Positions 3,993-40,300 are shown, numbered from the stretch's first letter. The stretch is 42,334 nucleotides of DNA from an uncultured Clostridia bacterium (GCA_947303145.1 CAMYXB010000001.1:1-42334); one strand, 5' to 3'. Made by a program: numbers and translations. The notes: a model not told the origin generated them from the letters alone.

Positions 3993-4103
3993 TAGAAAAT
4001 TATTGAGAAAAACAAATAGAATGAAACAAGTATAGTCGAAACGGAGATAAGATATACATATAGTTATAGACAAGACAACATAAGTTGAACTAAAAAAATA
4101 TAT

Positions 4104-6793: not shown

Positions 6794-6808
6794 ATTATCA
6801 CCTATATT

Positions 6809-8020: not shown

Positions 8021-8024
8021 TCTC

Positions 8025-12042: not shown

Positions 12043-12095
12043 GTTTTTCTTCCTTTTCTTCAACGATAAACCCAAGTGTTATTGAGTCTATACCA

Positions 12096-12491: not shown

Positions 12492-12533
12492 AATTCATCT
12501 CCTTTTAGCACTGTATAGCACTTAGATAATATA

Positions 12534-12563
12534 ATAATAGTATAATTCTCACACGCATGTCAA
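12534..12563 (-). promoter_or_regulatory. candidate promoter of the pilus operon
   Basis: On the minus strand: TTGACA (12563-12558), 18 nt, TATTAT (12539-12534), about 40 nt upstream of the pilin start codon. Confidence 0.4.
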
Positions 12564-12683
12564 ACGGATTTATCCATTTTTCGACAAAAAGTTGAGAAAT
12601 ATCTAGAATAGTATGTGTATCATATATGCAAATATTCTCCTTACACATCTCTTCTCCCATTCTAGTGATGAGGGGGAGAAAAA

Positions 12684-13271: not shown

Positions 13272-13350
13272 AAGAAAATAATAGCACAAGTCGAGCGTTT
13301 TTTCAATCAAAAATACACTACCCTGCGCTATTATTTATTATATCGAATTA

Positions 13351-16300
13351 CTACTGGATAAACCTATATTCACGTGTTAGTTGATAAATATAATTAACTT
13401 TATCTGGTATATTGCCTAAAATCCAACTAAGAACTTTTGATAGTAGCAATCTTGCAGCAAGCCGTTCATACCATTTCATGTCCCTAAGATCATCTTTGGT
13501 CGGTTTGCCAGCGACTATCAACGACCACCACTGAGAATCACAATGCCCTCCTTTTGTCCCAGGACCAAAGTAAATGCTATAATAATTTTCCCAACTTTCA
13601 GCCGTCATGCAAGCATTAGCAAAATAAGTCCCGCCTTCTTTGTTAAACTTTATTTTTGTTGGTCTCCCATCTGAATTAATATACTCTCTGACACACCAAA
13701 CACTAAAGCCAGGTTCTTGATTTGCATGGTTCCTGATTTCATTAGGGAACAACTTGCCAAGAAGCTTGCCGTCTCTTCTACTTTGAAGGTTGCCAGAAGT
13801 CCCTTTCATATCACTACCGTTTTCCACAGCATAGAATTCGTCTCGCCCTTTATACATCGAAATCATATAATCCGCAGTATTACCCAAATCACAAGTTATA
13901 GATCTAATTGTAGAATAAATAGGTTTAGTGAAATAAACAGGGAATGTTTCGTTAAGCCATGCTCCTATCTTTCGTAAAGGCCAACCCCAATCTACAGTCG
14001 CTTCTCCTGGCCATACCACAACTCTATGAGTTTTATACCAGAAATGTAGGTAATCGAGTGAATATCTATTGACATACTCACATGTAAAACCAATACTGCG
14101 TCCACTAATATTTGTGAGCCAACCGGTATCAAATCCACCTCTCGTATCAATTTGACCATTACCTTTGACGTTGTAAGTAGTAATCATTCCACCTATCCAC
14201 AAGTCGCCCTCAACAAGCATTCCAGCTATATCATCATCAGCCAAAACGAATTCTCTTGCCCTTATGGCTAGTCCGTAAACATTATATTCTTTATCATCAA
14301 TCTTAACTTTTTCATCACCTTTGAGGGAATCAAACGATTGACGAATTTCCAAAACATGATTGTTTTGAATTATATCTCCATTTACATCTATATTCACTTT
14401 TCCTAAACTATAAATCCCTGGTGTGAGACAGAAATGGACCTTGTCAGGCTTGGATGGAGTTTTGGCTAAATAATTGTTATAATCTCTTGCGACATAATAG
14501 CCATTGCTCAAAGCGTAAGAATAATCACTAGACACATTCTCAGAATTTACTATTTCGTTGTCTTCTATTACTCCGCTATTTAGAGTAATTGTAGAGTTTT
14601 CGCTTCCATAGACTGCGCCACCAAATCCTGCAGTGGAGTTGCGGGTTATATACCCACCAGTCAAGACCAATGTGCTTTCATTGACATACACACCGCCACC
14701 ACTTTTTGCCGCAAAGTTGCCGGTAATATTGGCTCCCGCGTTTACTTTGAAAGTCGATGATTGTCCGAAATACACGCCACCACCATATTCAGTCGCAAAA
14801 CTTCCCTCTATGAATCCATTATTAAAAATCACAGTAGAATCTACTATATAGCACCCAGCGCCATAAGAAGCCCTGCCATTACTAATTGTAAGATTATTTA
14901 GTTCGATGTAAGGGCTAGAATCTATAAACATAGCCCCTCCTAAATCACTTAATTTCGGGCTGGATGTTCTACCATTATTTAGAGCCCCTGCTATAGATAG
15001 ATTTTTACAATTGCTCATGTATACACAATCTCCACGTAGAGAATGTGGATTATCACCATCTTTGCCATCAAATTCTTCACTATAAGTTCCTGTGACCTCA
15101 CCTAGATTGATAGAGAGAACTCCACTATTATCAGCAAAATGTAATTCAGATAAATATACACCACCACCATACTTAGCATTATTACAATTGATAGTTCCAC
15201 TCAAGTCGATGTCAAGTCCCTTTAAATCCACATCTGAAATGCTACCAACAGCCAATCCTCCGCCATATGTAGCAGAATTACCTATGATTTTGGCACTTTT
15301 TCCTTGAGTAAATGTGACGCCACCTATTTGTGCGGCTAAATCTAAATACACTCCACCACCTTTTCCCCCAGCAGTGTTAGAAGAGATTTCTCCTGCGGTG
15401 AAATTGAGCACCCCAGAAGCGACATACACGCCAGCACCATTCAATGCCATATTTTCACTTATCACAGACTTGGAGCTATCGTCTTCGTCTGAACTTCCTA
15501 TATTAACAATAGCATCATTTTGTAGTATCGCTATACCACCACCAAAACCATAATCTGATGTCAGTTGCGTTGAATCATTAATGACTTTCTTGTATCTCTT
15601 AAAATCTTGAACTCCGCCATTGTGACTTATCTTTGTCACACCCATTAAGGTTATAGTGCCATGTTCCACTGCTATGGCTCCACCTTTAGGGGATCCACCA
15701 CCGACATAGTTGTCTTTGAAAGCAAAACTGGTGATTATAAGGTTAATTTTTTCATCTTCTGGAGTATCTGGAGCATCTTGCACATTGTAATACAATCCAC
15801 CACCGACTAGGGCATAGTTGCCTATTATTCTAGCATTGACAACAGACGAATCATTATTGCCCTTAAACTCCGCATTCGTTTTAAGATTCTTGATGTATAA
15901 TCCACCACCATTGGCATTCTTGGCAATGTTATTCTCTATCTTGGCATAATTGCCCAAATTAATAGTTCCACCATCGACATAAATACCACCACCACCAACT
16001 TGATTAGGATTTGCTACATCTGTCCCTGCTTCTCTATCTCCCACTGACTCATTGTATGAGACTTCGGCATTACTCATGTTAAGTGTGCCACCCTCTGCTA
16101 CAAAGATGCCACCACCATTGATAGCCTTGTTCCCTTTAGGATTTTCTTTTTCATCTTTGCCTCCGATTTGGGCTCCAGATCCTTCTAGGCTTAATATTCC
16201 GCTGGCGATATAGACACCACCACCATTACCATACTGAGTCTTCTCTCCCTCGTTGGATACGGCTTCGTTGGACATTATCTTGGCTTTCTGTGTAATAGAC

Positions 16301-19300
16301 AAGGTTTCTGTCACCGCATCGCCAATATCCACATACAAGCCGGCACCATTAAGGGCCTTGTTGCCAGTTATTGTAGTATCTGAGCTAAAGCCTGAATTAC
16401 TTGAGGAGTCAGCATTATAGCAAACATTTCCGCATTTGATGTAAATGCCACCGCCACCTCCGACATAAGGATTATCTCCCGTATTATATACTCCCTCGCC
16501 ATTATTTACAGAATTGCCTTCCACAGTGACGATCATGAATATGATCTTGCGAGCATTGATATACATGCCACCGCCATTTCCGTCTGCACTGACCACTCCA
16601 TTCTCGACTGCAGCATTGGCTATATTCTTCGAAATGGTGACATTCTCAAGTTTTACATTGAGACCAGTTTTGGCATCAGGATTGTCGAAATACACACCAC
16701 CACCGTTGGCAGAAGAGTTGTTCGCTATATTAGTAGGCTTATTACCATTCGCCCTCAGGATAACGCTATTGTTCTCACCCTGTGACTCGGCATTTGAGAA
16801 CAATCCGCCACCGTTTAATGTAGCTGAGTTATATGACAATGTTCCACCAGCCATATCTAGTATGGCAGATTCTGCAATATACACACCACCGCCATTTTCT
16901 GAGGCGTAGTTGTGTGATACATTGCCTGTTATATTAACCTTGCCAGCGATAGCATACACACCGCCACCATTTTTGGCTGAGTTGGAATAGGCATCAGCTG
17001 TGGCTACCTCTTCGCTTTCGCCATCGCCTATATTTCCACTAATATTGAGCTCGGATCCCTTGCTGAACACAGCACCGCCATTTTCGGCTGTATTGCCAGT
17101 GAATTCTCCGCCTTCAATATTGACTTTAGCATCCTGTGCCACATAGATAGCACCACCATCGGTGGCCTCATTTGAAGTGAATGCCACTGAACCAAAGGTG
17201 GTCCCTTTAGACTCCACGACATACATGCCACCGCCATTTGTGGCTGAGTTTGACTCAATAGTTCCATTACTTATGGAGATGTCGCTATTCTTTGCCACGC
17301 ATAGTGCACCGCCGTTAGTGGCTGAGTTGTGTGTCAAAGTTCCACTAAGGCTGAATGATGAGACAGCCTCGAGATACACACCACCACCATTAGTAGCATA
17401 GTTATATGAGATAGTGCCGGATATATCCACATTGCCACCATTGGCATAGATTCCACCGCCATTAGTGGCTGAATTGGAATGATTCTCGTCATCGGCTGTT
17501 GTAGATTTATCCTCACCTATTATGGCGCCCTCACCTATGACTATCTCTCCGTCTAGTGAGTATACACCGCCACCATTATTGGCGATATTGCCATATATTG
17601 CTCCGCCTTGCATGTCAAGAGTAGCAGAAGTTGCTACATACACACCGCCACCAAGAGCGGTGACTTTATCCTCGCCCTCTATTGTGGCTGTGCCATTAGA
17701 GGAAATCTGTGCTTCATCATTTATGTTGAGAGAGCCAGATTCGACATACACGCCAGCGCCTTTTGTGGCATAGTTGCCACTTACCTCGGCATCACTACTC
17801 AATGTAGTGTTGCCCTCAGAGTATACACCGCCACCACAATCGGCTTTATTGCCACTTATTGTAGCATGAATTGTGGCTGTCATACCACTGCCGACAAATA
17901 TGCCACCAGCATTTTCACTGGCTGTGTTGCCTGTGACTTTAACGCCACTAGGTATCTTGACTGCACTACTACCTGCTAGATATAACGCTCCGCCATCACG
18001 TGCATTGTTGCCTGTAAATGTAGCATCGCTATCTTCAGTAAATGTGAGTGTGGCATCACCGAGATATATTGCTCCGCCATTCGCAGGAGTGGTGGAGTTG
18101 CCAGAGATATTGACACTCTTGCCTATTGTAAGTGAACCACGAACTATGGCTATGGCTGAGCCATCACCTGTGGCAGTGACACCAGATATAGTGATGCCAT
18201 TCAGCACTGTCTGACCACCATCTATGTATATCGCTCCACGAGTGACGGTGCCTGTAATGGAGACATTCGACACGGTCTCAAGTTTTCCAGCTTTTACATA
18301 TACCAGTCCATTAGATGCTGTGCAAGTATTCTCTATGGTGGTGTTCTTTATGGTGGTATCACCGCCATCTACATAGACAATAGAGCCATTGACATTGCCA
18401 GAGATATTGCCAGAGATATTGCTGAACGACACTTGATTGGCTGCCCCGTCACCTTTGCCTAAGAATAGGTGTCCTGCCTTCACTGTGATGAGAGGCGAAG
18501 TGCTACTGTATGAGCCATTGTCGAACTTGACATTGTAGATGTAGAGAGATGTGTTGGCGCTATTAAGCTCCAATCTCGCCTGCATCTGCAGTCCGTCATA
18601 ACTTCGAGCGGTGACAGCTATCTGCCTCCACTTACTATCTTGTGTCTCAAGGGACACTCTATTGATATATTCTTGAGAGAGGTTGAATGAACCGGAAGTC
18701 AAGTTGACCACAAATTCCTCTTCTCCGCTACCGGTTATTTGTGCCAGACCATCGATTGCCTCATACTCAGAAGCCAGATTGATGTTCTCGAGCAAGACCA
18801 CGTCTATATGTCTATAGCCATTGGCATAATCTGCACTTAGTGAGGAGAGTGCCTTCTCTAATGTGATGTAATATCTTATGAATTCCTTATTATCACTACT
18901 ATTGTAGAATATCTTGGCGACCTTCCTCATGCCTATGATGACGTCATAATGTGCTGTGCCGTCATCAGATGTGAGGGAATCTTTGTAATCCAAAACGAAA
19001 GCATATTCATTGCCATTTGCATCTATACCACAGAATAGTCTGTCGTCTGCAAATCTATCCGCTATCCTATGGTCATACTTGGCTATAATGGTGTAGCAAG
19101 CATTAAAGGCATAATCGAGTTTGAGATTGATAGGCTTGTCGTTGAGGGCTGTGTTGTATCTACCGTTGACAAAGATATAACTATTGAGCATAGAGCCATT
19201 AGGTGTGTAGTAGTCTATGAGATACACATTGTCTTGAATATGGAGGGCAGAACTGAGAGCCTTATCCTCAGGCTTTTCGTCTGCCTTGATGGTGGAGACA

Positions 19301-22300
19301 AGGGCGAATCCATTGCCATAGGAATTGACATAAATTCCGCTGGACTTGCCACCATCTAATGTGGATATATTGCCACTCATGGTGACAGACAAAATATTGA
19401 CAGATGTGGAGATGTAGTTGGGTGCGACATACTTGAGTGTGGTATATATAGCACCACCCTCATCGGCTATGTTGTTAGACATCTTCACTCTCTCGTCATT
19501 GACACTGTCTCCTAGGTTGAGAGTGCTGTTCTCATCTAGGAACACTGCTCCGCCATTGCCAGACAATACTTGGTTGCCTAGGATATTGCCTTGAGATATG
19601 GTCACGAGAGAAGTTGTAGAATATATCGCTCCACCATGGCTACTGGAAGTATTGCTAGTGATAGCGGACTCTCCTCCTATGGTGAGCTTGATGCCACTGG
19701 CGAATATACCTGCTCCCTGACCTCCCTGCTTGACATATCTATTGAGTAGAGATGTGTCAGTGGACTGCTCGTAAGTCTTGGAGTCATTGTCGTAGATGTA
19801 GTATTGATCTTTGACAAAATCCTCAGCGTCTATCTTGCCCACATTGACATAGCTCGGCTGACTAGATGCCAACTTATAGTATGTGACAGAGCTGTCCCAT
19901 TCCTCTGCTCTAGCCACTGCTCTGGCCACACAATATTCATATTCACTTATGGAGCCCACTCTCACAGAGTAAACATATTTTAGGAACTCTTCCTCACTTC
20001 TTATAGATTTCGGTGTGAGTGAGGAGCCAAGATAGTAGTTGCCACTTCCTTGGAACTTATACACAGGCTCATAGTAAGGCTCGAAGCCTTCGCCCATTTT
20101 CTTGACATACAATGTGCTCTCTAAAATCATGTCATTGGTGACATTGGATGCCACTTCATACACATAGCCCTGTCTTACCACATAGTATTCTGTGTCGGCA
20201 TCGTATGTGCTAGCTCTGTCATATGTCCCCGTCAAAGTATTCCACACGTAGTAATAACTGGAGGCGAAATCTCTAGATTCTTCCACCATGTTATACACTG
20301 CCTGTGCTACTCCATCTGTTATGGTGACATCTGTGAGTGACAGGTCTAAGTAATAGTCATAGTCTCCATCGGCATTCTCTGCTCTATAACTTCTGGCATA
20401 GATTGCTCCGCCAAGGCCTCCACCCGAGCTATTTATCTTGTCTCCTACGCCTGAGATGTTGCTAGAGAATGTAGCATGATATATGCTGACAGATGCAGGA
20501 GACAGGGTGGCACTCTCCAGCCCCTCGAGGATATACATGGCTCCGCCGTTCATGGCGAAGTTCTCGATGAATGAGACAGAATATGTGGCTCCGCTCTCTC
20601 CTATGGTCATGCCAAGTGTAGCAGAAGAGTATATGGCTCCGCCGTTGCCTAGGGCGCCATTTTGACTAAATGTATTCTCTCCTGTGATGGCGAGGGAAGA
20701 ATCTATCATATAGATCACACCGCCGTCTCCCTTGGTGTAATTGTTCTGGAATATATTCTTACTGCCAAGCGTTAGAGAGGAGCCCTCACCGGCATATATC
20801 ACTGCACCATTGACACCGACATAGCCGTTTACGCCAGTAGCTCTAATTTCACCGACATAGTTATTCTCAAAGTAAGCGCCTCTTACACTAACCTTAGCTC
20901 CTGATGAATAGATGACAGAGCCCTTGTTGAATGATGCATTGGCTATTCCTATGAATCTGCCACCAGTTATTTCGACATTGCTTCCTGATGGGGCAAATAC
21001 GAGAGAACTCACCTTGCTGGCCATATTGTCGTGATACACACCACCTTGTATCTTGGCTGTCGCTCCGTCTGTCAGAGTGACATGAGACATATACGTGCTA
21101 CCCACTTCGATGTTGGAATTGGATAGCTCAAAACTTGAGCCAAATACGACTGTTCCACCTCTCTCCACCTTAATAGCCACGCCAGTAGTTGATTCTGGAT
21201 ACTTAGCATCCAAACTCTGCAGAGAGAAGTTGGAATTTCTAAGTTGAAGAATAGGGTTAAGGTTGACATAATCAGTCCCCATTCCGTCAACATAGTTGCC
21301 AGTGAAGTATTCGTTCTGTATCTTTTGCTTGACTATAGGGTCCATATCACTTGGATAGCCGAACACGAGAGTATCCTTCTCACCTATTCTAAACAAATCA
21401 CCAGAGAACTGTGTGCCTGACATAACGTCTATGCCACGCTCGATGATGGTTCCGTCTCTGTATATATCGTCATGTATATTGTCACGAATAGGCACATTGT
21501 ATAGTGAGAAGGTATTCTTCCTTGTAGTGCTGTTGGTTATAGTTCTAGCAAGCAGGGTGATTCTCACACCGTTCATCTTATCGGTATTGAGGCTCCTATC
21601 AAGTCCTGGCTGAGCGTTGAATGTATACAAGGTCTCTGTGATAGAGAGTATTCCATTCTTAGGTTCGAAATACTTATAGTAGTTATCCTCATTCTCCTTA
21701 GTTTGCTCTAGCATATTGATGAGAATGATGCTGTTGTTGCTCGCCTTGAGGAGAGCATCTGCCAGAGTCTCATACACAGCCACGAGGTCGCCCTTTGCAT
21801 CAAGTTCTTGGAAATACTGCTGACTGATGACGAGATGTGTGGGCTGGGTGTCTGAAGAACCTGCCTTGAGAGTCTGTCCAGATGACAGAGGCAGATCGAA
21901 CATATACTTGTATATTGCCTTGAGAGTGGATAGAGTGCAATTGAGAGAGACGACTTTGTCGCCATAATCTTTTTTCTCTTTTTCCACTTGAGACAGGTCA
22001 GTATCGCTGAAGACCACCTTGAATCTCACCACACCTCCGTCAGAGGACACGAGTGCCTCGTTCTCTACATTTTGAGCAGCGACAGCGAATGCTGTGGTCT
22101 CCTTGTATGACAATTTGACAAGGTCGGTGATGTAGTCTATCTTGCACTTGAATATAAGTCCACGACTGGCCAAGCCGCCCTTATAGCTATACATGGCCTC
22201 ATAGTTGTAATCTAGCCAAATGCCTGCGAGAGACTTGTCCTCACCTTGAGAGAAAGTCGGCTCTCCGCCAAGTAGGACATAGCCATACTTGAGATACATG

Positions 22301-25300
22301 TTGAAGCCATCTCTATATTTCTCATCACCGCACTTTATGACATTGCCCTCTACTGTGCCATTGTATATGCTGAGCTGAGAGCCAGTGCTCTCTGTCTCTC
22401 CACTGACGAACAAGCCTGCACCTGTCCTGTAGATCAACACACTGCAGATTACTTCACCAGTGTCATCTTTCTTGTGTTCTACGACATAATGTATGCCATA
22501 AGCCATCTCGTTGTTTCTAATCTCGGCATTGGATATGGTGCCCACAGTGCCGAATAGATATAGACCTGCACCGCTGGAGTATGACTTGTTGCCACTAATT
22601 GTAGGACTGCCGTCACTTGTGGTGGAGGCAATGGTGAGTTCTCCACCCAACATATACACACCTCCACCTGAGCCTTTACCCTCTTCGTGATCAGTGGCTA
22701 GTCTTTCATCAGTCTCGCCATAATAGTTCTCTTTGTCTAAGTAGGTGTAGAGTGTGGCGATATTGCCGGATATTTCTCCAGCATAGATGCTTAACTTGGC
22801 ACTTTCGGCATAGATAGCACCGCCCAAAATGGAGCGATTGCTCGACAATACGCTGGCCCTTATCTCCACAGAGACGCCATTCATATACAATGCTCCGCCC
22901 TTGTTTTGAGCTATGTTGGAGGTGAATGTGGCCTTCTCTATGAGCATGGAGCCGGAGGAAAGATATATACCACCACCAAAGGAAGCCTTGTTAGATTCAA
23001 TACTTGGGCTGTTCTCTCCACTGCCTGTGATGGTGGACCTCTGTGAAGAAGCATAGAATATGGCACCGCCATATTGAGTAAGAGCGATAGGGCCCTCACC
23101 ACAAGATGAGATGTTGCTTGCACCAGAGATACTGATGGAGCCGGTCTCCACCACAGCGATGGCACCACCATAAGGAGCATAAGAAGAAGTGATGTCGACT
23201 GCCTCAAGAGAAAGTCTGCCCTGAGAGACATATATAGTCCCGCCATAATATGTGGCTGTGCTAGACGTAAATGCCACGCCGTTTATTCTGCTAGTCGTGG
23301 AGCTTGATGAGAAGAATATGGCACCACCATTCTCATTACCAATATTCCTTGCAAATGTAGTGTTGGACGTGCTGTCGCTAAGCACAATACTGCCACTGCC
23401 TGACACATATACAGCGCCACCCAAGAGAGCTTCGTTGTCAGAGATATCCACCACGTCATTGACGTCTTGGATATTCATCGTGCCACTTTCCACGAAGACT
23501 GCACCGCCATAGGTGGCTAGGTTGTGAGTAAGTGAGCCGGACTGAATGGTGAAGCTGCTCTTTTCTGCCACATAGACCGCTCCGCCATAGGTGGCAGATA
23601 GGTCGGTCAAAGTGGCACCTATTATGGTGAGCCCTGTGCTATCCTTACTCGCCACATACACAGCACCACCGCCATTAAATCCAGTAGGATAGACCACTGT
23701 GGAGTAGTCTTTGGGGTCTGTTATCTCTATGTATGAGGAGATGCTCGTCTTGTTGTAAGACAGGCAGACACCCTTGAATAGATTGACACTGCCTTTGCCC
23801 GCTATGACTATGATAGGAGCTGTGCCTCTGTCCTTATATGTATCCTTTTCTCCGCCATAGATATTGAATGTGGCTGTATTGCTGTCGTCATTGATATTAA
23901 GTGAGCCGAATACAGCTATCATCACACCGGCATAGTTCTCGTCTCTTATGATGCTGGCGTCATCTTCACTGACCAGCGTGACACTCTTGCCAGTAGGCAC
24001 CACTATCATGGAACTAGATGAGATGACTTGGTCTTTGGTTATGTGGATAGTATATAGCGAGCCATTGTCCTCATACTGCTCTATGGCATCTTTTATGGAC
24101 GCATAGTAGAATGTATTGCTCTCGCTATCTGTGACGTAGCAAGTGGAGTTGGTCATGAACACCTTTTCGCCTTCCTTGGTGAACACCTTGCTCGTAGCGC
24201 TGAATCTAGTAGGATTGGCCACCTGCTCATTGTCATATAAAGCCACGAGTATCCTCTCGCCGTCTTTGAGCTCCTCCTCGAGTTCGATGGCTATCTTAGA
24301 CGAGACAGATGTGCCATAACTCAATGCTGAGATGAACACCTTGGTGCCAGTGGCAAGATACACGCTGTCAAGGTTTACATCGTTGTCCACAATGAGAGCC
24401 TTGTCGGCTGTATTGCCTAGATAGATGCTGGCATAGGCTCTACTCTCATCTCGACTAATGGTGCCAGAGGATATGGAGAATGTCGCCTTGGATGAAATGT
24501 AGACATTGTCACCAGCGCAATTATCTGTGTTGAAGTTGGCTGTAATCATGGCATAGCCTAGGCTGAGTCTGGCTAGTGAGTCTAGATACACACCAGCACC
24601 TCTGAGCGCAGAGTTGCCATCTATCTTAAATCCTTGAGAAGTCTTGAAAAGGGCTTTGTCGCTGGCCTTAGACGCTGTGACAAAGAGTCCACCGCCATAC
24701 TCTATGGCTGTGTTTTCCTTAATCTCTACATTCTTGAGAGATATGGACATATCTTTATTAGAATTGACGTATATTCCAGCACCATTCTTGCTGGCAGTAT
24801 TGCCATCTATTATGCTTGGATTGGTGGATACTGCATTGCTCTCTAATGTGGAGGCACCTGTCATATACACACCTGCACCATACTTGGCTGAGTTGCTAGA
24901 GATGTTTGCACCACTTAAAAGCACTGCCTTGCCACCACTGACGACCATTCCGCCACCAGATTCTAATGCCACACATCCGGATACTTCGCCACCTATTCTC
25001 ACTGTGCCGAATAATGCACTGGTCAATCTGACCGCCATCACTCCTGCACCAGAATAGGCGTGATTGTCACATATCTTGCCCCCGCTTGCCAAGGTCAAGA
25101 GTCCGCCTGTGACATACACACCACCGCCATAGTAGGCATAGTTGCTGGATATATCACAGCCCTCGCTAAGCAATACAGAGCCTGACCTCACGTATAGTCC
25201 ACCACCGAGATAGTCACTGCTACTTATGGCAGATATTGTGTTGTTGCTGGAGATGGCTGTGTCAGAGACTCTAGATTGTCCCACCACCATATCAGCAGTG

Positions 25301-31300: not shown

Positions 31301-34300
31301 GTCAAGATGTGCTCAGGGTAGTTGAATATATTCCTAAAGTGGTGGAAACTAACCACGCCCTCTGCTCTACTGAATGTCTCAGTATATGTCTTGGTGATAG
31401 CATTGACTGTGATAAGCTTCCTGTATTCTCCCTTGCCTTCCACTGTATAGGTGGTGTCGGAGGACAACCCTTCTATGAAGGTGGCATCAACGCTAGAAGG
31501 AATCTTCACCTCCACACTCACTGTCTCCAGCTTGAATGTCGCCTCGAAGTAAATCTTCTTAATATTGTTCTCTCTGATAACAGATGATGCATTCACTAGG
31601 TCTCTCAAGGTGAATATTGTGCCATTGCTTATCTCTTCTATGCCCTCAAAAGCAACATATTCGTCATCTTCGTTCTTATATTTCGCCACCCATTTATCCA
31701 CCTCATAGTATGGCTTGATGTCACTGGCGACAGTGAGGGTGACACCGCTCTCTGCTGACAAGTATCCTGCAGACATCTCGCTCCCGTCCACGATGAGATA
31801 ACAATCGTAGTTTTCCGCTTTCCATTGAGCGTAAATGGTGATGACTTCATTGGACTTCTCGCTATCTGTGGTATACCATGAGGAGAGTTCGCCACTCTCA
31901 TTGTAGTAGGCGTATCTTTCCATCAGGCTGTAGCCGAATCTATCACCTGTGATACCGGAGAGGACTTCACTCAAAGTTTTCTCCTTGATATACACTCCAC
32001 GAAGAGCATGACCTCTGACATCGAGCATAGGCTCGCCATCTTTTATTATCTCTAAAGGCTCGCCATATTCGCCAGTTATAGCCCTTCCATCAAGGAATAA
32101 CTGTCCTCCATTGCCATGTATGATGATATTGTCTGCAGAAGGTTGCAGAGAGAGGAAATATCCGTCTTTGCTTCTAACTAGGCAATATACTGCAAGATCT
32201 CTATTATTATCATTATTATTTAGCGAGAAGCATCGAGAATATCTCATGAATGAGTTTTGGTCGGAGAACTCTATGACATTGTGCTTGCCCTCTTCCTCTA
32301 GTTTCTTCCTAAGAGAAGGGATATTGTCTAGGTCTATGTCTATGATTATCTTGCCATCTACGAGTTCTTCGCTGTTGAGACTGGACGACTTGACATAAGA
32401 GTGATGCTCGAGCGAGAGACCCTCAATATATGCTGTGCCAGATATGAAGAGCTTGCCATAAGAATCGCTCTGTCTTCCTGCCACCTTGATAGTGCCACTG
32501 ACTATGGTGTCTATGACTGACAAGGAGCCTGTATTGTCGACCAATATACTAGGCATATTGGAGAACATATCCTCTGTGGGCACTTTTTCTCCATTATCGT
32601 CACACACTCTCTCGTCCATATCCACGCCAGAGAGTGTGATGGTGGAATTGTTGGCGACAAATATATTGCTAGCTGTGCCACTAGCGCCCTCATTGTTCAA
32701 TATTTTGCCGAAACTGAGAGTGTTGGCGACACTGCTTTCAAAGTTCACACCACCTACACCTTGTAAGCCAATGTTCTCACTGATAGTGGATCCCTCACTC
32801 ATGAATAGGAGTGCTCCCCTCACTAAGTAGACACCACCACCCTTCACAGCACTATTGCCGTTTACGTGAGAATTGTTGAGGATTATCTTAGCATTATCCT
32901 CGGCATAAATGCCACCGCCACTATTTCCAAAGTTGTCGGTGATGGTGGAATTATTGATAGTCAAGGTTCCATTGTCGACAAAGGCAAAGCCACCAAAAGA
33001 TATTTGAACCCCTTCCTTACCATTATTCTTGATCTCTAGATTCTCATTATCTTCTTCATTTATGATATTCACCTGAGAAGCGTTTATATACAATGCACCA
33101 CCATAGTAATTGGTCTTAGTATCTTTGTTGTTATTGATGAGCGTCACATTCTCTATACTTGCTGTGGCGCTACTGGCAAATATTGCTCCACCACGATAGG
33201 CTATATTGCCATTAAAGGTGATGAATTGGACCGCTTCATTACTGCCGAACACATCACTATAAGTGTTTCCTCTGCTGTTGATGGTGAGTTGCCCCATAGC
33301 ATAAATAGCGCCACCACCGTAAATTTCTGGTTGAGATGCGTCATCATTGTCCTGTATGTTGCCCTTGAAATATCCTGCCCATACATATAGACTGGAGGCA
33401 CTGTATATGGCACCACCTTGATTGTTCGCCTTGTTGCCCACGAATTCCACATTGGTGGAAAGGGTGAGTGTGCCACTGGTATAGATAGCTCCACCTCTAT
33501 TAGAGGCTGTGTTTTTGCTAAAGAGAATGCTCTTCCCGCTATTGATATTTATAGCATTGCTGGCGTATATAGCACCGCCATCTGTGGCATAGTTCTCTGT
33601 GAACTTCACCGTCCCCAGTGTCAGACGAGAGGCGCTGGTGGCATATATCGCACCACCTAAGTGTGCGCTACTATCACCCTCCTTGTCCGCCTTATTATTG
33701 GAGAACAGGCAGTCCTCTATGCTGACCACACCGCCATCAATGTATATGGCACCACCATTGCTGGTAGATTCGTTGGACTCGAAGTAGACTCCGCTTAGAT
33801 TGAGGACTCCGCTCCTTGCCACGTATATGACACCTTTGCCAGAGTGGATACTTGAGAAAGTCCCACTTTGCGCATCGGTAGTTTTATAACTATATCCGCC
33901 GTTTATGTTGGCTGTGCCATTCACTTCAATCACTGCCACACCACTGGAGGTGATGACGCCACTGAAGATCACTTTGCTACTGGTATTGAGTGTAGCACCA
34001 GACTCGACTATTATGATTGGACTGCTAATATCCTTCGTTGATGTCCAGACAAAATTGTTGGTCGAATCAATATTGAGCGTGGCTCCGCTCTTGATGGTGA
34101 TTGTAGACGAGAATACCAATTTCCTATCATCGCCTTGTCCTTTAATGGTGACGGACTTGTTGACAGTGATGTTCTTTGTCACAGATGTCCCGTCCTCGGC
34201 ATCGTCTATGACCACTACCTTGTATGATGCCAGAGTCCTTGCGTCCACCTCATCGAAGGCGTCCTCTACACTCTTGAAATACAGATTATAACTACTTGCG

Positions 34301-37300
34301 AGAGTGCTGACAGCCTTTTCAAGATATGCGACTATGCCTTGAGTGTCCCACACGGCATACAACTCAAGATTTTCATCATCTAAAGCCTTGACATCGGTCA
34401 TCACACTGCCTTGCCTGTAGTAATAATAGTAGACACCATGTTCTTCTTCAGAATAATAACCCTTTTCATCAAAAGACTTGCCAGTAAATTCGTCTGCTGA
34501 GACTCCTTTTTTGGTGGAGAATCCTAGGAGAATGCCTGGGGTTTGACCATAAGTATTGTAGTTGTAGACGAAGAATGACTCATCATTATACATCACCACA
34601 TTATCCTTGGAAGGCAGGGTGAGACTGTCGCCCTGAGACAGGACAACCTTGATTTGACGATCTGACTCGCCCTCTTTAAGCTCTGTAGGATTGTAGTGCA
34701 GGATTACATTGACGCCCTTTCTGACGTAATAAAATGTGACCTCTATCTCATCACCTTGCAGGTCTCTATTGTCTCTATCTAAGGTGAAGTCCTCATCAAT
34801 ATTGTGTGTGCCTGAGTCAATGAATGCAGGTCTAGCATTTATCTTATACTTCATGAACTGATAGTTGTCTGGCACAAATAGATGCTTGACATAATAGATG
34901 CCACCATTGTAGTGCGCTTCTATTCCATTAGGAGTGTTTATGATATAGTTCGTCTCCTCTCCAGTCTTTTGAGAGAGAGTGTCTTCGCCGATTCTCAGTT
35001 CGTTTATGTTTTCCGTGGTGCCTTGCAGTATCTCTACTTCGCTCTCGTCATACACCACTGTATATGCCTTATATAAGCGCTTAGGTGCGCCATTTTCCAT
35101 CTTTAATGTGCCGTCATCATTGTATACGAAGCTATATCCCACGTTATACTCGACTCCATCATTGTCCTTAAATGTCATGTCAGGCAAAACAGAATAGGAC
35201 TCTCCATTGCTCATTGTAATGGTGAGCTGTCTGTTGTTATTGAGTGAACCCTCGACAGGCTCATAGTGAACAAGTTGAATCTTACTGAAGATGTCCTCCA
35301 TGAACATATTGACAAGGTCGCCCTTATAGGCATATTGCTTGGCGTCCTCTTGAGTGGTGAAAATGGTGTAAGTGATGCCCTCTGCTGAGAACTTGCCGTC
35401 CACTACATCGTATGGCACAGCAGTTTCAGAAAGGTCGAGTTTGGCCTTATTATTATCATAGTCCACATACACTCTAACCACACTCACCTGACTTGTCATG
35501 GCATATCCATCAGTCTTTATGCCATTGATGGTGGCACCAGTCTTGAAGTATTCGTTGATGCGGGTGAGAATGTTGCCCTCTCTCTCAACCACCAAGCCAT
35601 CTATGGTGTAATAGCCATTTCCTGTGGAGCCATCAAGGAATTTATATGGCTTATTCATAGTGTCTATGTGTGAGTCGAATATTGTGTCGAAATTGAATGA
35701 CACATGATACTCTATAGGCTCCCACACAGCGTAGAAATACATGTCATGTGCAGGATATGTGAGTCCGTCAAGATTGGATATGAAGTAGAATCTGCCTGTG
35801 TAGTCTCCACTCTCATAGTCATTGTCTATGGCGTCTATGGTGAGCTCTAATCCATCTTCCTCATCTATCTCAAACTGCCTTGCATACTCTGTGATATGCT
35901 TTTCATTCTCATAACTGAAATACACCCAGCCCATGTGTCTGTATCCTGCTCTTGTCACAGACATGGCCTCGTATTTATCCAAATCAGCGCTGATGTCACC
36001 AGCAAATTCCACCCTATATGTGCCAGCAATGCCCTTCTCTCTGCCGGAGGACAATTCCTCTCTATCCACGCTTAAATCATCGAATATGATGTCGAAATTC
36101 CTATAATACAAGTCCAGAGTATATCTCGTGTTTTCTTCATCTATTGGTGTCTCTGTGGGCATGAGCATATACTTGCTGGCGTGTTCTATCTTGAACAAAT
36201 TTCTAGGATTTTCTTCATCATTTTTCATATCCAAGTAGAAGTCATAGCCGTCTTTAGTGGCGAACTCCACCATAGGCGTGCATATAGCAGTGATGCCGTC
36301 TCTATCTTGGTAGTAAATGCCGATGGAGAATAATTCATTTTCATCATAAGTCTCCAGATGGACTATTTCATCTGGATAGACATTATCAAACTCGTCTATG
36401 GACAGAGTTATGTAATGATAGCCGTTCTCCACCTCTGAATAGTCCTCTCCCTTACTAGAAAGATACTCATAGATAGACGACAGATATATGTCTTGATTGC
36501 CACCAAAGTATGTCCCACCATAAATATCTATATGTCCGTTGTTGAGTATGGCATAATTGCCATAAGTGCTTTTATTGTTGTGGAAGAACACTTTGCCTAG
36601 TTTAATCTCTCCATTATTGATAATGGTGGCTTTCTTAGCAGAGTTGCCCATAACAAATACATCTTTGAGGTCCGCCTCAGCGTCCTCTGCTATATATATA
36701 GAAGATGCCTGATAGGAGTAGTTGCCATTGAAATACTTGCCGGCGAAGTCATCATCGTTGCCCCTAGCCTTGACTGCGGCAAAATATTGAGCATAACTCT
36801 CGTTCTCTTCCTCTTCCCACGCTTCAACAGCTTCATAGTTTATCTCTACTGAACCATCGAGATTGTAGCTGGTATTTGCATCTATACACTCCTGTCTTTC
36901 CTTGTCGTTAATAGGGTGGTCACGATAACTAGACAGGTCCTTCTCTTCTATTGAGTGCAGGTTTTTGCTAGTAATCTCTACTTTGCCTGATGCAATATAA
37001 ATACCACCACCATAATATGAGTAGTTCTCACTTATTTTTAGATCTTCACCTAATGTGAGTGTTCTGCCGGTAGCATCAACATACATACCACCACCCATAT
37101 AATCTGATGCGCCTTCAAGAACTTCATCCAAAAAACTTTGGCCAAAATAATAGCCTCTCGCCGTGTCTGGCAAAATTGTGTTATTTTTTAGTATTAATAT
37201 ATTGGAAAGGGTGAGATTGCCTGTCTTATTGGCGTAATACACCCCGCCACCTTTCTTGGCTACATTCTCATTTATCCACAATGAGACATCCTCTATCTTA

Positions 37301-40300
37301 GTGTTGATGAAAAAGTTCCCACTTTCGTCTTGATCTTTGTCTGTGACCTCTCTTTGGGCACTTATAGCTGAGACTGAGCCGATGAAACTGGCAAAATACA
37401 CACCACCGCCATTGTCTGCGACATTGGCAGTAATAATGGTTGAGGTAAATGACACTTGGGCGAGATCTTCACTGCCTTGCCCCATTATATACATATAGCC
37501 ACCATTTTTTGCCACTCCAGAGGTCAATGTGCTATTCACAAAGGAAATACTCTTGCCAGCAAAGAATATAACACCGCCATTCCCATCAGCGCTATCGTAG
37601 CCGTCTGTATAATCTAGTAGAACGTCGTTTTCGTAATAGACCTTATAATCTCTGTTTTTGAGATTATTTACTGTGATGACGCTACCTCTATCGAAGTAGA
37701 GAGCTCCACCGTCCCCTAGAGACCTATTTTCTGCTGTGACGCAGTCATTGAATGTGATTCTAGCAAATTCTGTATACAGGGAACCTCCACCCTTTTTGGC
37801 ATTATTTTTACAGAAAGCCATACCATTGAATGTGAACGCCACAGGTGAGGAGTCTCCATCTCCCACCATGGCCATGCCACCACCGAAGTCGGCGGTGTTG
37901 TCACTCATGACAAAATCTGCGATAGAGAGCGTGAGATTCACTCTCTTGAGATACATCGCTCCGCCATAACCTGCGAAGCCTTCCTCTGCGCTAGAAGTGG
38001 CTCTATTATTGGTAAACGAGACTGCAGACAAACTAAGCGAGCCAGAGTTGACAGCCAACGCTCCACCATAACAATTAACTTGTGAAGAAATGCTGTTGCT
38101 TTCGAAAACAACACTGGATATGGTGAGCGTGGAGCTCCTTGAATAAACTGCTCCGCCATACGCCTCAGCCTCACTGACTACTCTATTGCTCCTAAATGCA
38201 ACAGAGGAGAGATTGACTGTTCCCTCTAGAGTATAAATAGCCGAGCCGAGATGACTGGAACTTGATATATTTTCAAATGAAACATTGCCACTTACATTGA
38301 GCCAACCTCCTTCCACACTAATGATAGGACTATCATTGGTGTCGCCATCTAAGGTAGAAAATTTTAGACTGGAATTAGGGGCTTTTTGACCAGTAATTTT
38401 GACTCTGCCGTTATTTAAGACACGGAATAGACTGCCACCGCCTGTCTTGTATATAACTGGGGTGTATTTTCTTCCCTCTAGTTCTATATTAAGCGTGATA
38501 CCACTTATAACAAAAGTCTGGCCCACTGTGGTGTTGCTAGCTACGGTCACGTCTTCATTGCTGTTGCAGATGGTCACGGTCACGCTCTTGCTATTCGATA
38601 GCCCTGCATAAATGACAGCTTCGTCTAGTGCCTCTTGGATATTGCCATAGGTCTTGGTGTATGGTGTCGCATTCGCTACAAATCGATAACCCACTCCAAG
38701 TGAATCTTGCTCAAACTCCTTGAAATTGTTTATCTGTGCTACAGCATTGCCAAAGCCCAGCATAAAGTTGATGACATACTCGCCACCTACTTGACTGACA
38801 CCTCTATTGGTGCGAAGCTCCCATGTAGCTCCGCCTTGCAGAGCGTCTCCAATTGGGTTGAAACTATCGTTGAGACGTCTATATGAATTGGCGTTCTTGC
38901 CTCTCCACTCGATGTATCTAGTGATAGGCAGAGTGAATACGGAGTCTATGACAATGGTGTCATCTGAGAATTCAAAGTAATATAGATTCTTTGAGCTGTC
39001 CTTTGCCTTGCTCACCATACTCTTTGTTTCGTTGTCTTTATAATCAATGGCAGACTCTGGGGCGGAGCCTGAATTCTGCAGATAGATACGCACTTTCACC
39101 TTGGCAGGCTCAAAGACAGGTGTAATGGTGATAGCGTTGTTATTGCTGAAGTCCATCAATCTGTTATATTCACCATTAGAGCCAGTGTATGTTATAAGTC
39201 CAGTCCTAGAGTCTATCTTCCACTTTCCATTACCATCAGGAGCCTCTATGAGCAGTCTCCTGTCCTTATCGTTGACGGAGATTTTCTCTCCAGCAGAGAA
39301 GGTGGACCACACTCCGTCTTGTGTGTTGTCTATTTTCCATTCCTTGAATGTATATCCCGATGGGACGTTCCAGCCGGCAGGAATAGAGGAGAGGAATGTG
39401 AAATCCTCACCATAAGTCATCTCTCCACCAGACAGAGTCTCCACATTGCTGTTCTTATAAGTGACAGACTTGGTTATGGGCTGATAGATAGCATAAAGAG
39501 TCTTGACTGGCACTGAGCCATCTATCACATAAGTGAGGGCACTGTCTACCTGAGAGGAAGTAGCACTTCTCTCATAGTATCCCACTATAACTCTATCCTT
39601 GTCCGCATCGGAGAGAGCGGAATATGCATCATAGTCTTGGACACTCTCGTCTTGCGACCAGCCGATAAATCTGTATCCATATTTATTAGGTCCCAAAGCG
39701 GAACTATCACTATACAATGGATATAGACGATATCTAAGTATGGTGTCGCCACCCACTTCTGTTATCTCTGGTCTAAGAGAAGGCAGGTTGAAAACAATGG
39801 CCGTCTGTTCCCCGTCCTCTTCGTCAATGTATGTATAGTTGTAATATCCGCCCTTTAGATCGAATATGAGTTCGAATGTATTATAGTTAGGTGTTAATAC
39901 ATATATATCATTATTATTTAATGCTACAGAAAGAGTGGCGCCGACAACGGAATAGTTGAATCCGTTGTGATTCCAGCCATAGAATGAGGCTCCACCCGCC
40001 TCTTCTGCCACGACAAGAGAGATGTCATCTATCTCTTCGCCATAACTTGACACGAATGTCACTCCTCCATCCACTCTCTCGAATATGAGTGTGCCCTCAG
40101 GGAACGAAGAAATCTGTCCCAATGTGTTAATTCGAATGAGAATGCTGGAATAATCTATGGCATATTCATCAATGCTCTCGTAGCTATAGGCATAATATAT
40201 CTTGTCAGTATCGAAATTACTCGATGTGAGTGTCACCTCTTTGAGTCCAAAGTAGCCTTCGTAGTCAAGTAAGGTGTGGCTTTTTGCAAAGGTGTCGAAG

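What the first reader, a model, noticed from the sequence alone, without database searches (positions are those of the whole stretch)
14600..38653. Giant protein is a concatenation of seven adhesin-like cassettes, each opened by the same cap motif
Seen in the translation: every beta-helix block is preceded by a similar short head of the form Y-x-[ST]-[IL]-x-[DEK]-A-[ILVF]. The head is followed by a few alternating hydrophobic strands. The seven heads are listed here with their positions. Head 1 is YGNIQEALDEAVIYAG (about 38607-38653). Head 2 is FKSVEDAFDEVDARTLASYKVVVIDD (about 34241-34283). Head 3 is YTDIYSAVSDLRAGDSLYLVKRD (about 31081-31140). Head 4 is YSSLEDAVTDSAPYALILVK (about 26281-26340). 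Head 5 is YASIKDAIEQYEDNGSLYTIHITKD (about 24046-24110). Head 6 is YETLADALLKASNNSIILINM (about 21712-21778). Head 7 is YITLEKALSSLSADYANGYRHIDVVLLEN (about 18791-18875). Each head plus FxxN...GGAxY solenoid resembles a complete stand-alone beta-helix adhesin, so the gene looks like an in-frame fusion or serial duplication of seven such units. The units are separated by Flg_new or LRR spacers 2.2-4.8 kb apart. They are diverged at the DNA level, with no long identical repeats noticed, which suggests an old or selected arrangement rather than a recent amplification.
Basis: seen in the sequence. Interest (0 to 1): 0.65.

Follow-up and report, generated by a model that had tools for sequence, protein, structure and literature searches.

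The report
Giant adhesin with seven capped beta-helices
A surface-protein gene of more than 9,600 codons from an uncultured ruminant-gut bacterium strings together seven beta-helix domains, each with its own cap. The repeated "head" is the ordinary N-terminal cap of such domains, and the seven-domain order is ancient, so this is a well-preserved example of a known kind of giant adhesin-like protein and not a new kind of system.

Summary
One minus-strand ORF (13351-42171, still open at the window edge) contains seven blocks of PMP-type rungs (FxxN / GGAxY). Each block is preceded by a head at the stated coordinates.

- **Motif:** the strict motif fits 4 of 7 heads. A looser form, [YF]-x-x-[ILV]-x-[DEKS]-A-[ILVF], fits all seven. 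It gives 10 hits against 0.97 expected, and 7 of the 10 sit in front of a block.
- **Structure:** AlphaFold2 puts the motif core in a short helix after a beta-hairpin, ahead of a confident right-handed beta-helix. This was seen for heads 3, 4 and 5.
- **Ortholog:** a profile of the seven heads finds exactly seven heads, at collinear positions, in a roughly 28%-identical ortholog from another metagenome (L081). Cassettes 1-4 are reciprocal best matches of their positional counterparts. The seven-cassette order therefore predates the split of the two lineages.
- **Not recent, not an artefact:** there are no long DNA repeats, and an independent 66.6-kb bovine-gut contig is collinear.

Two caveats apply. 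Only three of the six junctions have long spacers, and seven is a lower bound because the 5' end is missing. Fusion versus duplication stays unresolved.

N-terminal beta-helix caps and adhesin-like proteins with up to seven beta-helix domains are already described. Verdict: a new member of a known kind, of modest interest.

The parts
13351..42334 (-). Giant surface-protein gene, 5'-truncated by the window. It is 9,606 aa from the first GTG at 42171, and the frame is open to 42334.
   Evidence: There are no internal stops. An independent 66.6-kb contig is collinear over 18600-38499.
38701..42171 (-). N-terminal non-solenoid region (aa 1-1157), with scattered Flg_new-like signatures (GYxFxGW ... 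LYAxW).
   Evidence: a weak Flg_new hit near aa 830. The region is collinear with L081 aa 41-741.
36142..38700 (-). Cassette 1 (aa 1158-2010). Head YGNIQEAL at 38626-38649, PMP solenoid, then tail.
   Evidence: Reciprocal best match of L081 cassette D1.
34330..36141 (-). Spacer 1-2 (aa 2011-2614). No Pfam family; Flg_new-like signatures at aa 2076, 2146 and 2604.
32137..34329 (-). Cassette 2 (aa 2615-3345). Head FKSVEDAF at 34255-34278.
   Evidence: Reciprocal best match of D2, 144 bits.
31210..32136 (-). Spacer 2-3 (aa 3346-3654), not annotated.
29737..31209 (-). Cassette 3 (aa 3655-4145). Head YTDIYSAV at 31117-31140. This is the shortest complete unit.
   Evidence: AF2 model m4850195c8174: hairpin E9-15 / E18-24, helix H27-32, then beta-helix rungs with pLDDT about 90 to residue 370. 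Foldseek returns only right-handed beta-helix proteins. Reciprocal best match of D3, 197 bits.
26389..29736 (-). Spacer 3-4 (aa 4146-5261). Two clear Flg_new units at 28648-29145 and BspA-type LRR_5 at 26548-26913.
24148..26388 (-). Cassette 4 (aa 5262-6008). Head YSSLEDAV at 26314-26337.
   Evidence: AF2 model 2: hairpin E2-8 / E11-18 and helix H21-27, pLDDT about 80. Reciprocal best match of D4.
21817..24150 (-). Cassette 5 (aa 6008-6785). Head YASIKDAI at 24082-24105. It follows the tail of cassette 4 directly.
   Evidence: AF2 model 2: helix H765-772 over IKDAIEQY, and solenoid pLDDT above 90.
18916..21819 (-). Cassette 6 (aa 6785-7752). Head YETLADAL at 21751-21774. It has a long pre-solenoid stretch and an insertion of about 200 aa (aa 7280-7480) between rungs.
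   Evidence: This is the most diverged cassette.
14302..18918 (-). Cassette 7 (aa 7752-9290). Head YITLEKAL at 18847-18870. One long solenoid with at least 32 rungs.
   Evidence: No internal head is found by the 14-head profile.
13354..14304 (-). C-terminal non-repeat domain (aa 9290-9606), a rare module. There is no LPXTG motif and no clear transmembrane helix.
   Evidence: No Pfam, PDB or word-index homologs. One hit among 1.84 billion representatives, P0241, which is collinear with aa 8949-9554. Hydropathy.

Best explanation
The gene encodes a giant, probably cell-surface, fibrous adhesin-like protein of an uncultured Clostridia-like bacterium of the ruminant gut. The visible part contains seven independent right-handed parallel beta-helix domains built from PMP-type rungs (FxxN ... 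GGA[ILV]Y).

**What each head is.** Each head is the N-terminal cap of its domain. It consists of a beta-hairpin, then a short amphipathic helix carrying [YF]-x-[STDN]-[LIVF]-x-[DESKN]-A-[LVIF], then the first irregular rungs. Each domain ends in a poorly conserved non-rung tail.

**What the caps do (inferred).** The caps cover the otherwise exposed edge of the first rung. Each solenoid can then fold as its own unit and does not propagate or aggregate end to end. This is inferred from published work on beta-helix caps.

**Linkers.** Cassettes 1-4 are linked by long spacers that include Flg_new and BspA-type LRR modules. Cassettes 4-7 follow one another directly.

**Age of the array.** The seven-cassette order is ancient. 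It arose by duplication and/or fusion before the divergence of two lineages whose orthologs are now about 28% identical, and it has been kept since.

**Shown here:** the cassette anatomy, the heads and their statistics, the beta-helix fold prediction, the helix at the motif, the collinear ortholog, and the absence of recent repeats.

**Inferred:** the capping and anti-aggregation role, surface location and adhesive function.
For: - **Motif:** enrichment and position of the motif in front of each block.
- **Blocks:** seven mutually similar solenoid blocks, with Chlam_PMP / POMP_repeat matches.
- **Cassette 3 model:** pLDDT about 90 over 370 residues, with a hairpin and helix at the head followed by rungs. 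All top PDB fold matches are right-handed beta-helix proteins: RbmB, AlgG, Rhombotarget A, tailspikes, TibA.
- **Heads 4 and 5:** the same hairpin/helix pattern appears at head 4 and a helix at head 5.
- **Stand-alone homologs:** they begin with the same type of head 60-200 aa before their first rung, for example AYTSIQDAVNAATDGDRIWV in P0034.
- **Head profile in L081:** it finds exactly seven heads, at collinear positions, with i-E from 1e-9 to 6e-3 and the next hit at 0.17. In the 14 heads Ala is invariant and Tyr occurs 12 times out of 14.
- **Positional orthology:** it holds for C1-C4, at 86-197 bits against 28-105 bits for paralogs.
- **No recent amplification:** there are no long DNA repeats.
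- **Independent assembly:** a collinear assembly exists, and the listed indels are mostly multiples of three (9, 12, 6, 3, 3, 6), plus single- and two-base indels clustered within a few bases of each other.
- **Commonness:** 72 of 120 longer homologs have at least two rung blocks.
- **Literature:** a conserved N-terminal alpha-helix cap of right-handed beta-helices and its anti-aggregation role, and an archaeal adhesin-like protein with seven beta-helix domains (PMC11532034, citing Bryan et al. 2011).
Against: - The heads are weakly conserved. Leave-one-out profiles built within this protein recover only heads 4 and 5 as the top non-training hit (i-E about 0.009). Heads 1 and 2 come back only marginally, and heads 3, 6 and 7 are not recovered.
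- No Pfam or NCBIfam model, and no PDB sequence, matches the heads.
- Fold matches are weak: E at least 0.02 and TM 0.3-0.4.
- Only secondary structure and pLDDT were available, so packing of the helix on the first rung was not seen.
- The tail-to-head junction and most of cassette 4 were modelled with low confidence, mean pLDDT 58.
- No signal peptide, sortase motif or anchor is visible. The N-terminus lies outside the window.
- No RNA runs were found. No binding data exist.
Confidence: 0.8

Rival explanations
1. The cassettes are catalytic beta-helix domains (polysaccharide lyases, hydrolases or epimerases). The protein would then be a giant multi-enzyme for plant or microbial glycan breakdown in the rumen and not an adhesin.
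For: The best fold matches are polysaccharide-active beta-helix enzymes: RbmB lyase, AlgG epimerase, DFA-IIIase, PL6 lyases and phage tailspikes. The habitat is the ruminant gut.
Against: The matches are weak (E at least 0.02, TM 0.3-0.4) and reflect the shared fold. By sequence the cassettes hit only the PMP repeat families and no lyase, GH28 or pectinesterase family. The rungs are very regular consensus repeats without the long active-site loops typical of the enzymes. The accompanying modules, BspA-type LRR and Flg_new, are typical of surface-binding proteins.
Confidence: 0.1
2. The heads are not homologous modules. They are chance or composition-driven matches to a short degenerate pattern, and the solenoid blocks are simply interrupted by unrelated insertions.
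For: Only Ala is invariant. Leave-one-out profiles within the protein are weak. No curated family and no PDB sequence matches them.
Against: - 10 hits against 0.97 expected, and 7 of the 10 lie just upstream of a block.
- A profile of the seven heads picks out exactly seven collinear heads in a 28%-identical ortholog, and two significant internal heads each in P0189 and P0196.
- The same secondary-structure pattern is predicted at heads 3, 4 and 5.
- The same head occurs at the start of many stand-alone homologs.
Confidence: 0.04
3. The multi-cassette arrangement is a recent tandem amplification or an assembly artefact of a repetitive gene.
For: Repetitive genes are prone to mis-assembly. Some short contigs in other runs join distant rungs, for example skips of 8-12 kb supported by sides of only 20-22 nt.
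Against: - There are no DNA repeats longer than about 64 nt, and those present are 60-87% identical.
- Cassettes are 25-34% identical at the protein level.
- A single 66.6-kb contig from an independent bovine-gut run is collinear over all 19.9 kb tested, at about 96.7% identity.
- A deep ortholog has the same order.
Confidence: 0.02

Closest known systems
Multi-domain right-handed beta-helix (RBH) adhesin-like proteins of gut methanogens (Methanobrevibacter smithii, Methanosphaera stadtmanae; PMC11532034)
   Same: These are large surface-type proteins of gut or rumen microbes. They carry several RBH domains per protein; one M. smithii protein is reported with seven. PMP-type repeats are common. 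Archaeal-looking hits P0015, P0032 and P0040 start each RBH domain with an analogous head, and P0040 has two head + solenoid units.
   Different: Here the organism is bacterial (Clostridia-like) and the protein is several times longer, more than 9,660 aa. The linkers are Flg_new and BspA-LRR. There is a rare C-terminal domain. The seven-cassette order is shown to be conserved in a 28%-identical ortholog.
Chlamydial polymorphic membrane proteins (Pmp; Pfam PF02415 Chlam_PMP, NCBIfam TIGR01376 POMP_repeat)
   Same: The same rung repeat, with FxxN and GGA[ILV] tetrapeptides forming the coils of a beta-helix (PMC11166332 and PMC10715098 abstracts). Family matches are found in the cassettes.
   Different: Pmps are type V autotransporters with one passenger beta-helix and a C-terminal beta-barrel. 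No autotransporter domain is found here. There are seven separately capped helices, and the organism is probably Gram-positive-type.
N-terminal capping motifs of right-handed parallel beta-helices (Bryan et al. 2011, as cited in PMC11532034)
   Same: A short alpha-helix at the N-terminal end of the solenoid, proposed to be conserved across the fold and to block edge-to-edge aggregation. The head here is predicted as a helix directly before the first rungs.
   Different: The specific sequence form, a hairpin followed by [YF]-x-[ST]-[LI]-x-[DE]-A-[LIV], is not covered by any Pfam or NCBIfam model tested. The packing itself was not seen here.
Giant LRR / InlB-B-repeat surface proteins of Clostridia and other gut bacteria (for example 'InlB B-repeat-containing protein' and 'leucine-rich repeat protein' annotations; bioRxiv 10.1101/2023.11.21.568195)
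   Same: The combination of Flg_new, BspA-type LRR_5 and Beta_helix / PMP modules in very long predicted surface proteins (names and domains of hits P0174, P0189, P0196 and P0205).
   Different: Most described examples are 1-3 kaa with one to a few solenoids. This one has at least seven in a fixed, conserved order.

Membership tests
PMP / POMP repeat proteins (Pfam PF02415, NCBIfam TIGR01376) | Repeated FxxN and GGA[ILV] motifs scoring above the curated cut-off | tested here: met
   Chlam_PMP reaches 82.5 bits on the whole N-terminal half. It is found in all seven cassette segments (26.9-77.8 bits against a cut-off of 20.6); the last cassette's hit is in aa 7750-8500, and the segment covering aa 8450-9260 had none. 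POMP_repeat is found in C2-C7 (17.6-77.7 bits against a cut-off of 15).
Chlamydial Pmp autotransporters (type Va) | C-terminal autotransporter beta-barrel after a single passenger beta-helix | tested here: not met
   No autotransporter or other Pfam family is found in the last 377 aa or in the last 1,150 aa. There are seven solenoids and not one.
Right-handed parallel beta-helix (pectin-lyase-like) fold | Three-stranded rungs stacked into a right-handed solenoid | tested here: met
   AF2 gives pLDDT about 90 over 370 residues of cassette 3 and above 90 for cassette 5 rungs. All top PDB fold matches are RBH proteins, though with weak E values of at least 0.02.
Right-handed parallel beta-helix (pectin-lyase-like) fold | N-terminal alpha-helical cap on the first rung | tested here: inconclusive
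   A helix is predicted exactly at the motif in heads 3, 4 and 5 (H27-32, H21-27, H765-772). Only secondary structure was returned, so packing was not seen, and heads 1, 2, 6 and 7 were not modelled.
Pfam Beta_helix (PF13229) | Match above the gathering score | tested here: not met
   It is not reported for any window segment at E up to 1. Many homologs do carry it.
BspA-type leucine-rich repeat proteins (PF13306 LRR_5) | LRR_5 match above cut-off | tested here: met
   60.5 bits against a cut-off of 27.7, at aa 5087-5208, just upstream of head 4.
Listeria-Bacteroides repeat / InlB B-repeat (PF09479 Flg_new) | Flg_new match above cut-off | tested here: met
   54.3 bits against a cut-off of 27, with two units at aa 4343-4508. 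Elsewhere only sub-threshold signatures are seen.
Sortase-anchored (LPXTG) Gram-positive surface proteins | C-terminal LPXTG motif followed by a hydrophobic segment and a charged tail | tested here: not met
   There is no LPXTG-like motif after aa 125. The maximum 19-residue hydropathy in the C-terminal region is 1.22.
Secreted / surface protein in general | N-terminal signal peptide | not testable with these tools
   The 5' end of the gene lies outside the window. Attempts to recover it from metagenome collections failed.
CSLREA-type N-terminal domain of PMP-repeat proteins (recalled from memory as an NCBIfam domain; one hit carries the name 'CSLREA domain-containing protein') | Profile match of the head segment | tested here: not met
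   No NCBIfam model other than POMP_repeat matched the cassettes at E up to 1. Only noise matched the isolated heads at E up to 10. The resemblance (x-S-L-x-E-A-[IV]) therefore remains a lead only.

The most novel reading that the evidence does not exclude
The fixed order of seven strongly diverged cassettes has been kept between lineages that are now only about 28% identical. That order could reflect position-specific functions: for example, each capped beta-helix might bind a different ligand along a very long fibre. On this reading the rare C-terminal domain, with a single relative among 1.84 billion representative proteins, would be a new kind of anchoring or effector module. The two in-frame stop codons inside rungs of the L081 ortholog would then be a regulated way of producing shorter products and not decay.
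Probability: 0.12. Interest if true: 0.55.

Novelty: new member of a known kind. Interest (0 to 1): 0.3.

Why it matters
The result shows in one gene how very long beta-solenoid proteins are organised. The solenoid is not one endless helix. It is a chain of separately capped units that have diverged far enough (25-34% identity) to avoid recombination and probably cross-domain misfolding.

The head profile derived here, [YF]-x-[STDN]-[LIVF]-x-[DESKN]-A-[LVIF] preceded by a hairpin, is not covered by Pfam or NCBIfam. It could serve as a practical marker for delimiting beta-helix domains in giant proteins from metagenomes.

The conserved seven-cassette order gives a starting point for asking whether cassettes have distinct binding partners in the rumen. 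Beyond that, the finding is a good annotation and not a new principle.

Tried and rejected
- **PDB sequence search with cassette 3:** no hit at E up to 1.
- **PDB search with the 7-head profile:** only de novo designed proteins and an unrelated enzyme; not informative.
- **Pfam and NCBIfam on isolated heads:** noise only.
- **Leave-one-out head profiles within the protein:** too weak to prove homology alone. The external test on L081, P0189 and P0196 replaced them.
- **Tail profile:** only the tail of L081 cassette 3 was found convincingly (i-E 2.6e-5). Tails are therefore described as poorly conserved and not claimed as a module.
- **In-house Flg_new profile:** finds only the two clear units.
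- **C-terminal domain:** no Pfam, PDB or word-index homologs and none in GTDB genomes. The exhaustive search gave one relative.
- **Exact look-up of the T2SSE neighbour:** not on record.
- **Metagenome scans for the N-terminal part and for the C3-LRR region:** nothing useful.
- **RNA runs:** none listed.
- **Tool behaviour to keep in mind:** the listed homologs never exceeded about 1.75 times the query length. The absence of giant hits in those lists is therefore not evidence.
- **Recent amplification or assembly artefact:** rejected.
- **Phage origin:** rejected. The neighbours are recR and a type IV pilus-like operon, and PHROG hits are generic.

Full report
**1. What is in the window**

The region belongs to one open reading frame on the minus strand, 13351-42171, which is 9,606 aa counted from the first GTG. 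The frame has no stop all the way to the window edge at 42334, so the gene is cut at its 5' end and its true N-terminus is unknown. Protein residue i starts at window position 42171-3(i-1).

Downstream lie recR (12684-13310) and a type IV pilus / T2SS-like operon. The operon has three N_methyl pilins, a prepilin peptidase, T2SSF and T2SSE. The context is therefore a bacterial chromosome and not a phage. The T2SSE protein is 63% identical to that of a 'Clostridiales bacterium UBA9845' MAG and about 40% identical to everything else. Near-identical DNA of both the pilus operon and the giant gene is held by bovine, sheep and goat gut metagenomes.

**2. Check of the observation**

| Head | First aa | Window coordinates |
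|---|---|---|
| 1 | 1175 | 38626-38649 |
| 2 | 2632 | 34255-34278 |
| 3 | 3678 | 31117-31140 |
| 4 | 5279 | 26314-26337 |
| 5 | 6023 | 24082-24105 |
| 6 | 6800 | 21751-21774 |
| 7 | 7768 | 18847-18870 |

- The strict pattern Y-x-[ST]-[IL]-x-[DEK]-A-[ILVF] fits only heads 4-7, which is 4 hits against 0.04 expected.
- The loosest pattern that covers all seven, [YF]-x-x-[ILV]-x-[DEKS]-A-[ILVF], gives 10 hits against 0.97 expected, with a maximum of 6 in 3,000 shuffles. Seven of the 10 lie 70-380 aa before the first GGAxY rung of a block.
- A protein self dot-plot shows seven mutually similar blocks at aa 1200-1900, 2700-3200, 3700-4100, 5300-5900, 6100-6600, 7000-7650 and 7800-9250.
- Each block scores for Pfam Chlam_PMP, although for the last block the hit is confined to aa 7750-8500 and the segment covering aa 8450-9260 gave none. 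Six of the seven score for NCBIfam POMP_repeat.
- At the DNA level the only repeats are about 30-64-nt rung cores at 60-87% identity.

Two details need correction. First, Pfam-detectable Flg_new (two units, aa 4343-4508) and LRR_5 (aa 5087-5208) lie only between cassettes 3 and 4. The other long spacers are unannotated apart from Flg_new-like signatures. Second, cassettes 4-5-6-7 follow each other directly, with just a 165-220 aa non-rung tail between the last rung and the next head.

**3. What the head is**

An AlphaFold2 model of cassette 3 (aa 3655-4145, 55-row alignment) has pLDDT about 90 for residues 1-370. It shows:
- a beta-hairpin (E9-15, E18-24);
- a short helix, H27-32, lying on the head motif (IYSAVS);
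- then a regular series of short strands.

Its best PDB fold matches are exclusively right-handed parallel beta-helix proteins: RbmB, AlgG, Rhombotarget A, DFA-IIIase, phage tailspikes and TibA. The scores are weak, with E at least 0.02 and TM 0.3-0.4.

A second model (aa 5262-6460) is poor overall, with mean pLDDT 58. It nevertheless repeats the pattern at head 4 (hairpin E2-8 / E11-18, helix H21-27, pLDDT about 80). It places a helix (H765-772) on IKDAIEQY of head 5, and the cassette-5 rungs are above 90.

The head is therefore a hairpin plus a short helix placed immediately before the first rungs. This is the position of the N-terminal alpha-helical cap described as conserved in right-handed beta-helices and proposed to prevent edge aggregation (PMC11532034, citing Bryan et al. 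2011). Only secondary structure and confidence were returned, so the packing of the helix on rung 1 is inferred and was not seen.

**4. Is the head a homologous module?**

Within the protein alone the evidence is thin. Leave-one-out profiles recover only heads 4 and 5 as the best non-training hit (i-E about 0.009). No Pfam, NCBIfam or PDB sequence matches the heads. External evidence settles the question.

- **(a) Stand-alone homologs.** Stand-alone PMP / Beta_helix proteins found with cassette 3 (364 hits, 395-875 aa, 25-41% identity over their best local alignments, from many phyla) very often begin with the same kind of head 60-200 aa before their first rung. Examples are AYTSIQDAVNAATDGDRIWV, FNKIQDAINAAAEDD, FGSLEDALTNISNN and DYGTIQGAIDASEEGD.
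- **(b) Internal heads in other proteins.** The seven-head profile finds two significant internal heads each in P0189 and P0196 (i-E 3e-9 to 2e-5) and one in P0170.
- **(c) The L081 ortholog.** P0196 lies on an ENA scaffold (L081, GC 32.5%), where 24 kb form one reading frame of 8,053 codons. That frame is collinear with the window protein over its whole length at about 25-35% identity. In it the window-derived head profile finds exactly seven heads, at aa 938, 2111, 3086, 4732, 5461, 6115 and 6665, with i-E from 1e-9 to 6e-3 and the next hit at 0.17. Five are at the positions predicted by the collinear alignment, and the last two lie in the expected order.

Across the 14 heads Ala is invariant and Tyr occurs 12 times out of 14. 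The consensus is [YF]-x-[STDN]-[LIVF]-x-[DESKN]-A-[LVIF]. A 14-head profile finds no further head in either protein.

**5. Age and origin of the array**

- Paralogous cassettes are 25-34% identical, no closer to each other than to foreign single-cassette proteins. Only C4 and C7 are reciprocal best paralogs.
- Against L081, cassettes 1-4 are reciprocal best matches of their positional counterparts. They score 86, 144, 197 and 116 bits over 476-812 aligned columns, against 28-105 bits between paralogs.
- D5 and D7 match C5 and C7 best among the window cassettes. C6 / D6 is too diverged to call.

The seven-cassette order therefore existed before these two lineages separated, and it has been retained.

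Whether the array arose by serial internal duplication or by fusion of separate genes cannot be decided. Inter-cassette similarity is dominated by the rung consensus.

Multi-block proteins are common among relatives. Of 120 homologs of 995-2,649 aa, 72 have two to six rung blocks, and P0040 has two head + solenoid units.

Assembly artefact is excluded. A single 66.6-kb contig from an independent bovine-gut run is collinear over 18600-38499 at about 96.7% identity. The listed indels are mostly multiples of three (9, 12, 6, 3, 3, 6), together with single- and two-base indels clustered within a few bases of each other.

**6. How it most likely works**

*Shown:* a chain of at least seven beta-helix domains, each with its own head, PMP rungs and a non-rung tail, joined either directly or by long spacers containing Flg_new and BspA-type LRR modules.

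*Inferred:*
- The heads cap the N-terminal edge of each solenoid, so that each folds as a unit and exposed edge strands do not aggregate or run on.
- The strong divergence between neighbouring cassettes limits recombination and cross-domain misfolding.
- The whole is an extended surface fibre presenting several binding surfaces. This rests on PMP beta-helices, BspA-LRR and InlB-type repeats all being typical of adhesins.

How the protein is exported and anchored is unknown. The N-terminus is missing. There is no LPXTG motif and no segment with 19-residue hydropathy above 1.56.

The last 317 aa form a rare domain. It has no Pfam, PDB or word-index hits, and a single relative among 1.84 billion representatives. 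That relative, P0241, is the C-terminal fragment of a similar protein. It is collinear with aa 8949-9554 at 30% identity and carries a hydrophobic segment (hydropathy 1.97) that the window protein lacks.

An enzymatic role for the beta-helices (lyase or hydrolase) is the main functional rival. It is not excluded, but no sequence family supports it.

**7. Comparison with what is known**

- The rung repeat is that of the chlamydial Pmp family. The protein is not a Pmp autotransporter, because it has no beta-barrel and has seven helices.
- The architecture is closest to the multi-RBH adhesin-like proteins of gut methanogens, one of which is reported with seven RBH domains (PMC11532034). It is also close to the long LRR / InlB-repeat surface proteins of Clostridia (annotations; bioRxiv 10.1101/2023.11.21.568195).
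- The head corresponds to the known N-terminal cap of the fold.

New here are the size, the bacterial ruminant-gut lineage, the explicit head profile (not in Pfam or NCBIfam), and the demonstration that number and order of cassettes are conserved in a very distant ortholog.

**8. Verdict**

This is a new member of a known kind. Interest is 0.3.

Noticed in passing
window 42172-42334 (minus strand): The giant reading frame is still open at the window edge, so the gene is 5'-truncated. The L081 ortholog's first ORF extends about 2,365 aa beyond the point equivalent to the window edge. The full protein may therefore be about 12,000 aa and could hold more cassettes.
   Followed up: partly
L081:9827-9829 (TAA, codon 3276) and L081:16829-16831 (TGA, codon 5610): The orthologous giant gene in L081 is one frame of 8,053 codons broken by just two in-frame stops. 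Each stop lies inside a PMP rung (NIA*NGAGIY and IYVGAN*TFNMNGGEI), and gene callers split the frame into ORFs of 5,641, 2,276 and 2,440 aa. Possible causes are recent nonsense mutations, assembly errors or recoding. They were not distinguished.
   Followed up: partly
window 13354-14304 (aa 9290-9606): The C-terminal non-repeat domain is rich in Trp and Tyr. It has no Pfam, PDB or word-index homologs and only one relative (P0241) among 1.84 billion representative proteins. P0241 has a hydrophobic, possibly membrane-spanning segment after the domain, which the window protein lacks. L081 lacks the domain altogether.
   Followed up: partly
window 19732-20334 (aa 7280-7480) and 20670-21774: Cassette 6 is atypical. 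It has 377 aa between the head and the first rung. A Tyr-rich insertion of about 200 aa interrupts the solenoid. It is the cassette least conserved with L081.
   Followed up: no
window 5138-13310: Directly downstream of the giant gene lie recR and a type IV pilus / T2SS-like operon. The operon has three N_methyl pilins, two unannotated ORFs of 377 and 284 aa, a prepilin peptidase, T2SSF and T2SSE. No link to the giant protein was found, and L081 does not share this neighbourhood.
   Followed up: partly
window 18600-38500: Strain variants in independent ruminant metagenomes differ by about 3% and by indels. The listed indels are mostly in-frame (9, 12, 6, 3, 3 and 6 nt), together with a few single- and two-base indels lying within a few bases of one another. 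This fits an intact, selected gene across strains.
   Followed up: partly
window 14302-18918 and 24148-26388: Cassettes 4 and 7 are each other's best paralog (105 / 87 bits, 30% identity over 520 aa). This is the only hint of a specific internal duplication among the seven.
   Followed up: no
(tool behaviour): The listed homologs never exceeded about 1.75 times the query length: 875 aa for a 500-aa query and 2,649 aa for a 1,529-aa query. Giant relatives therefore cannot appear in such lists. The window's own protein was also not listed.
   Followed up: no
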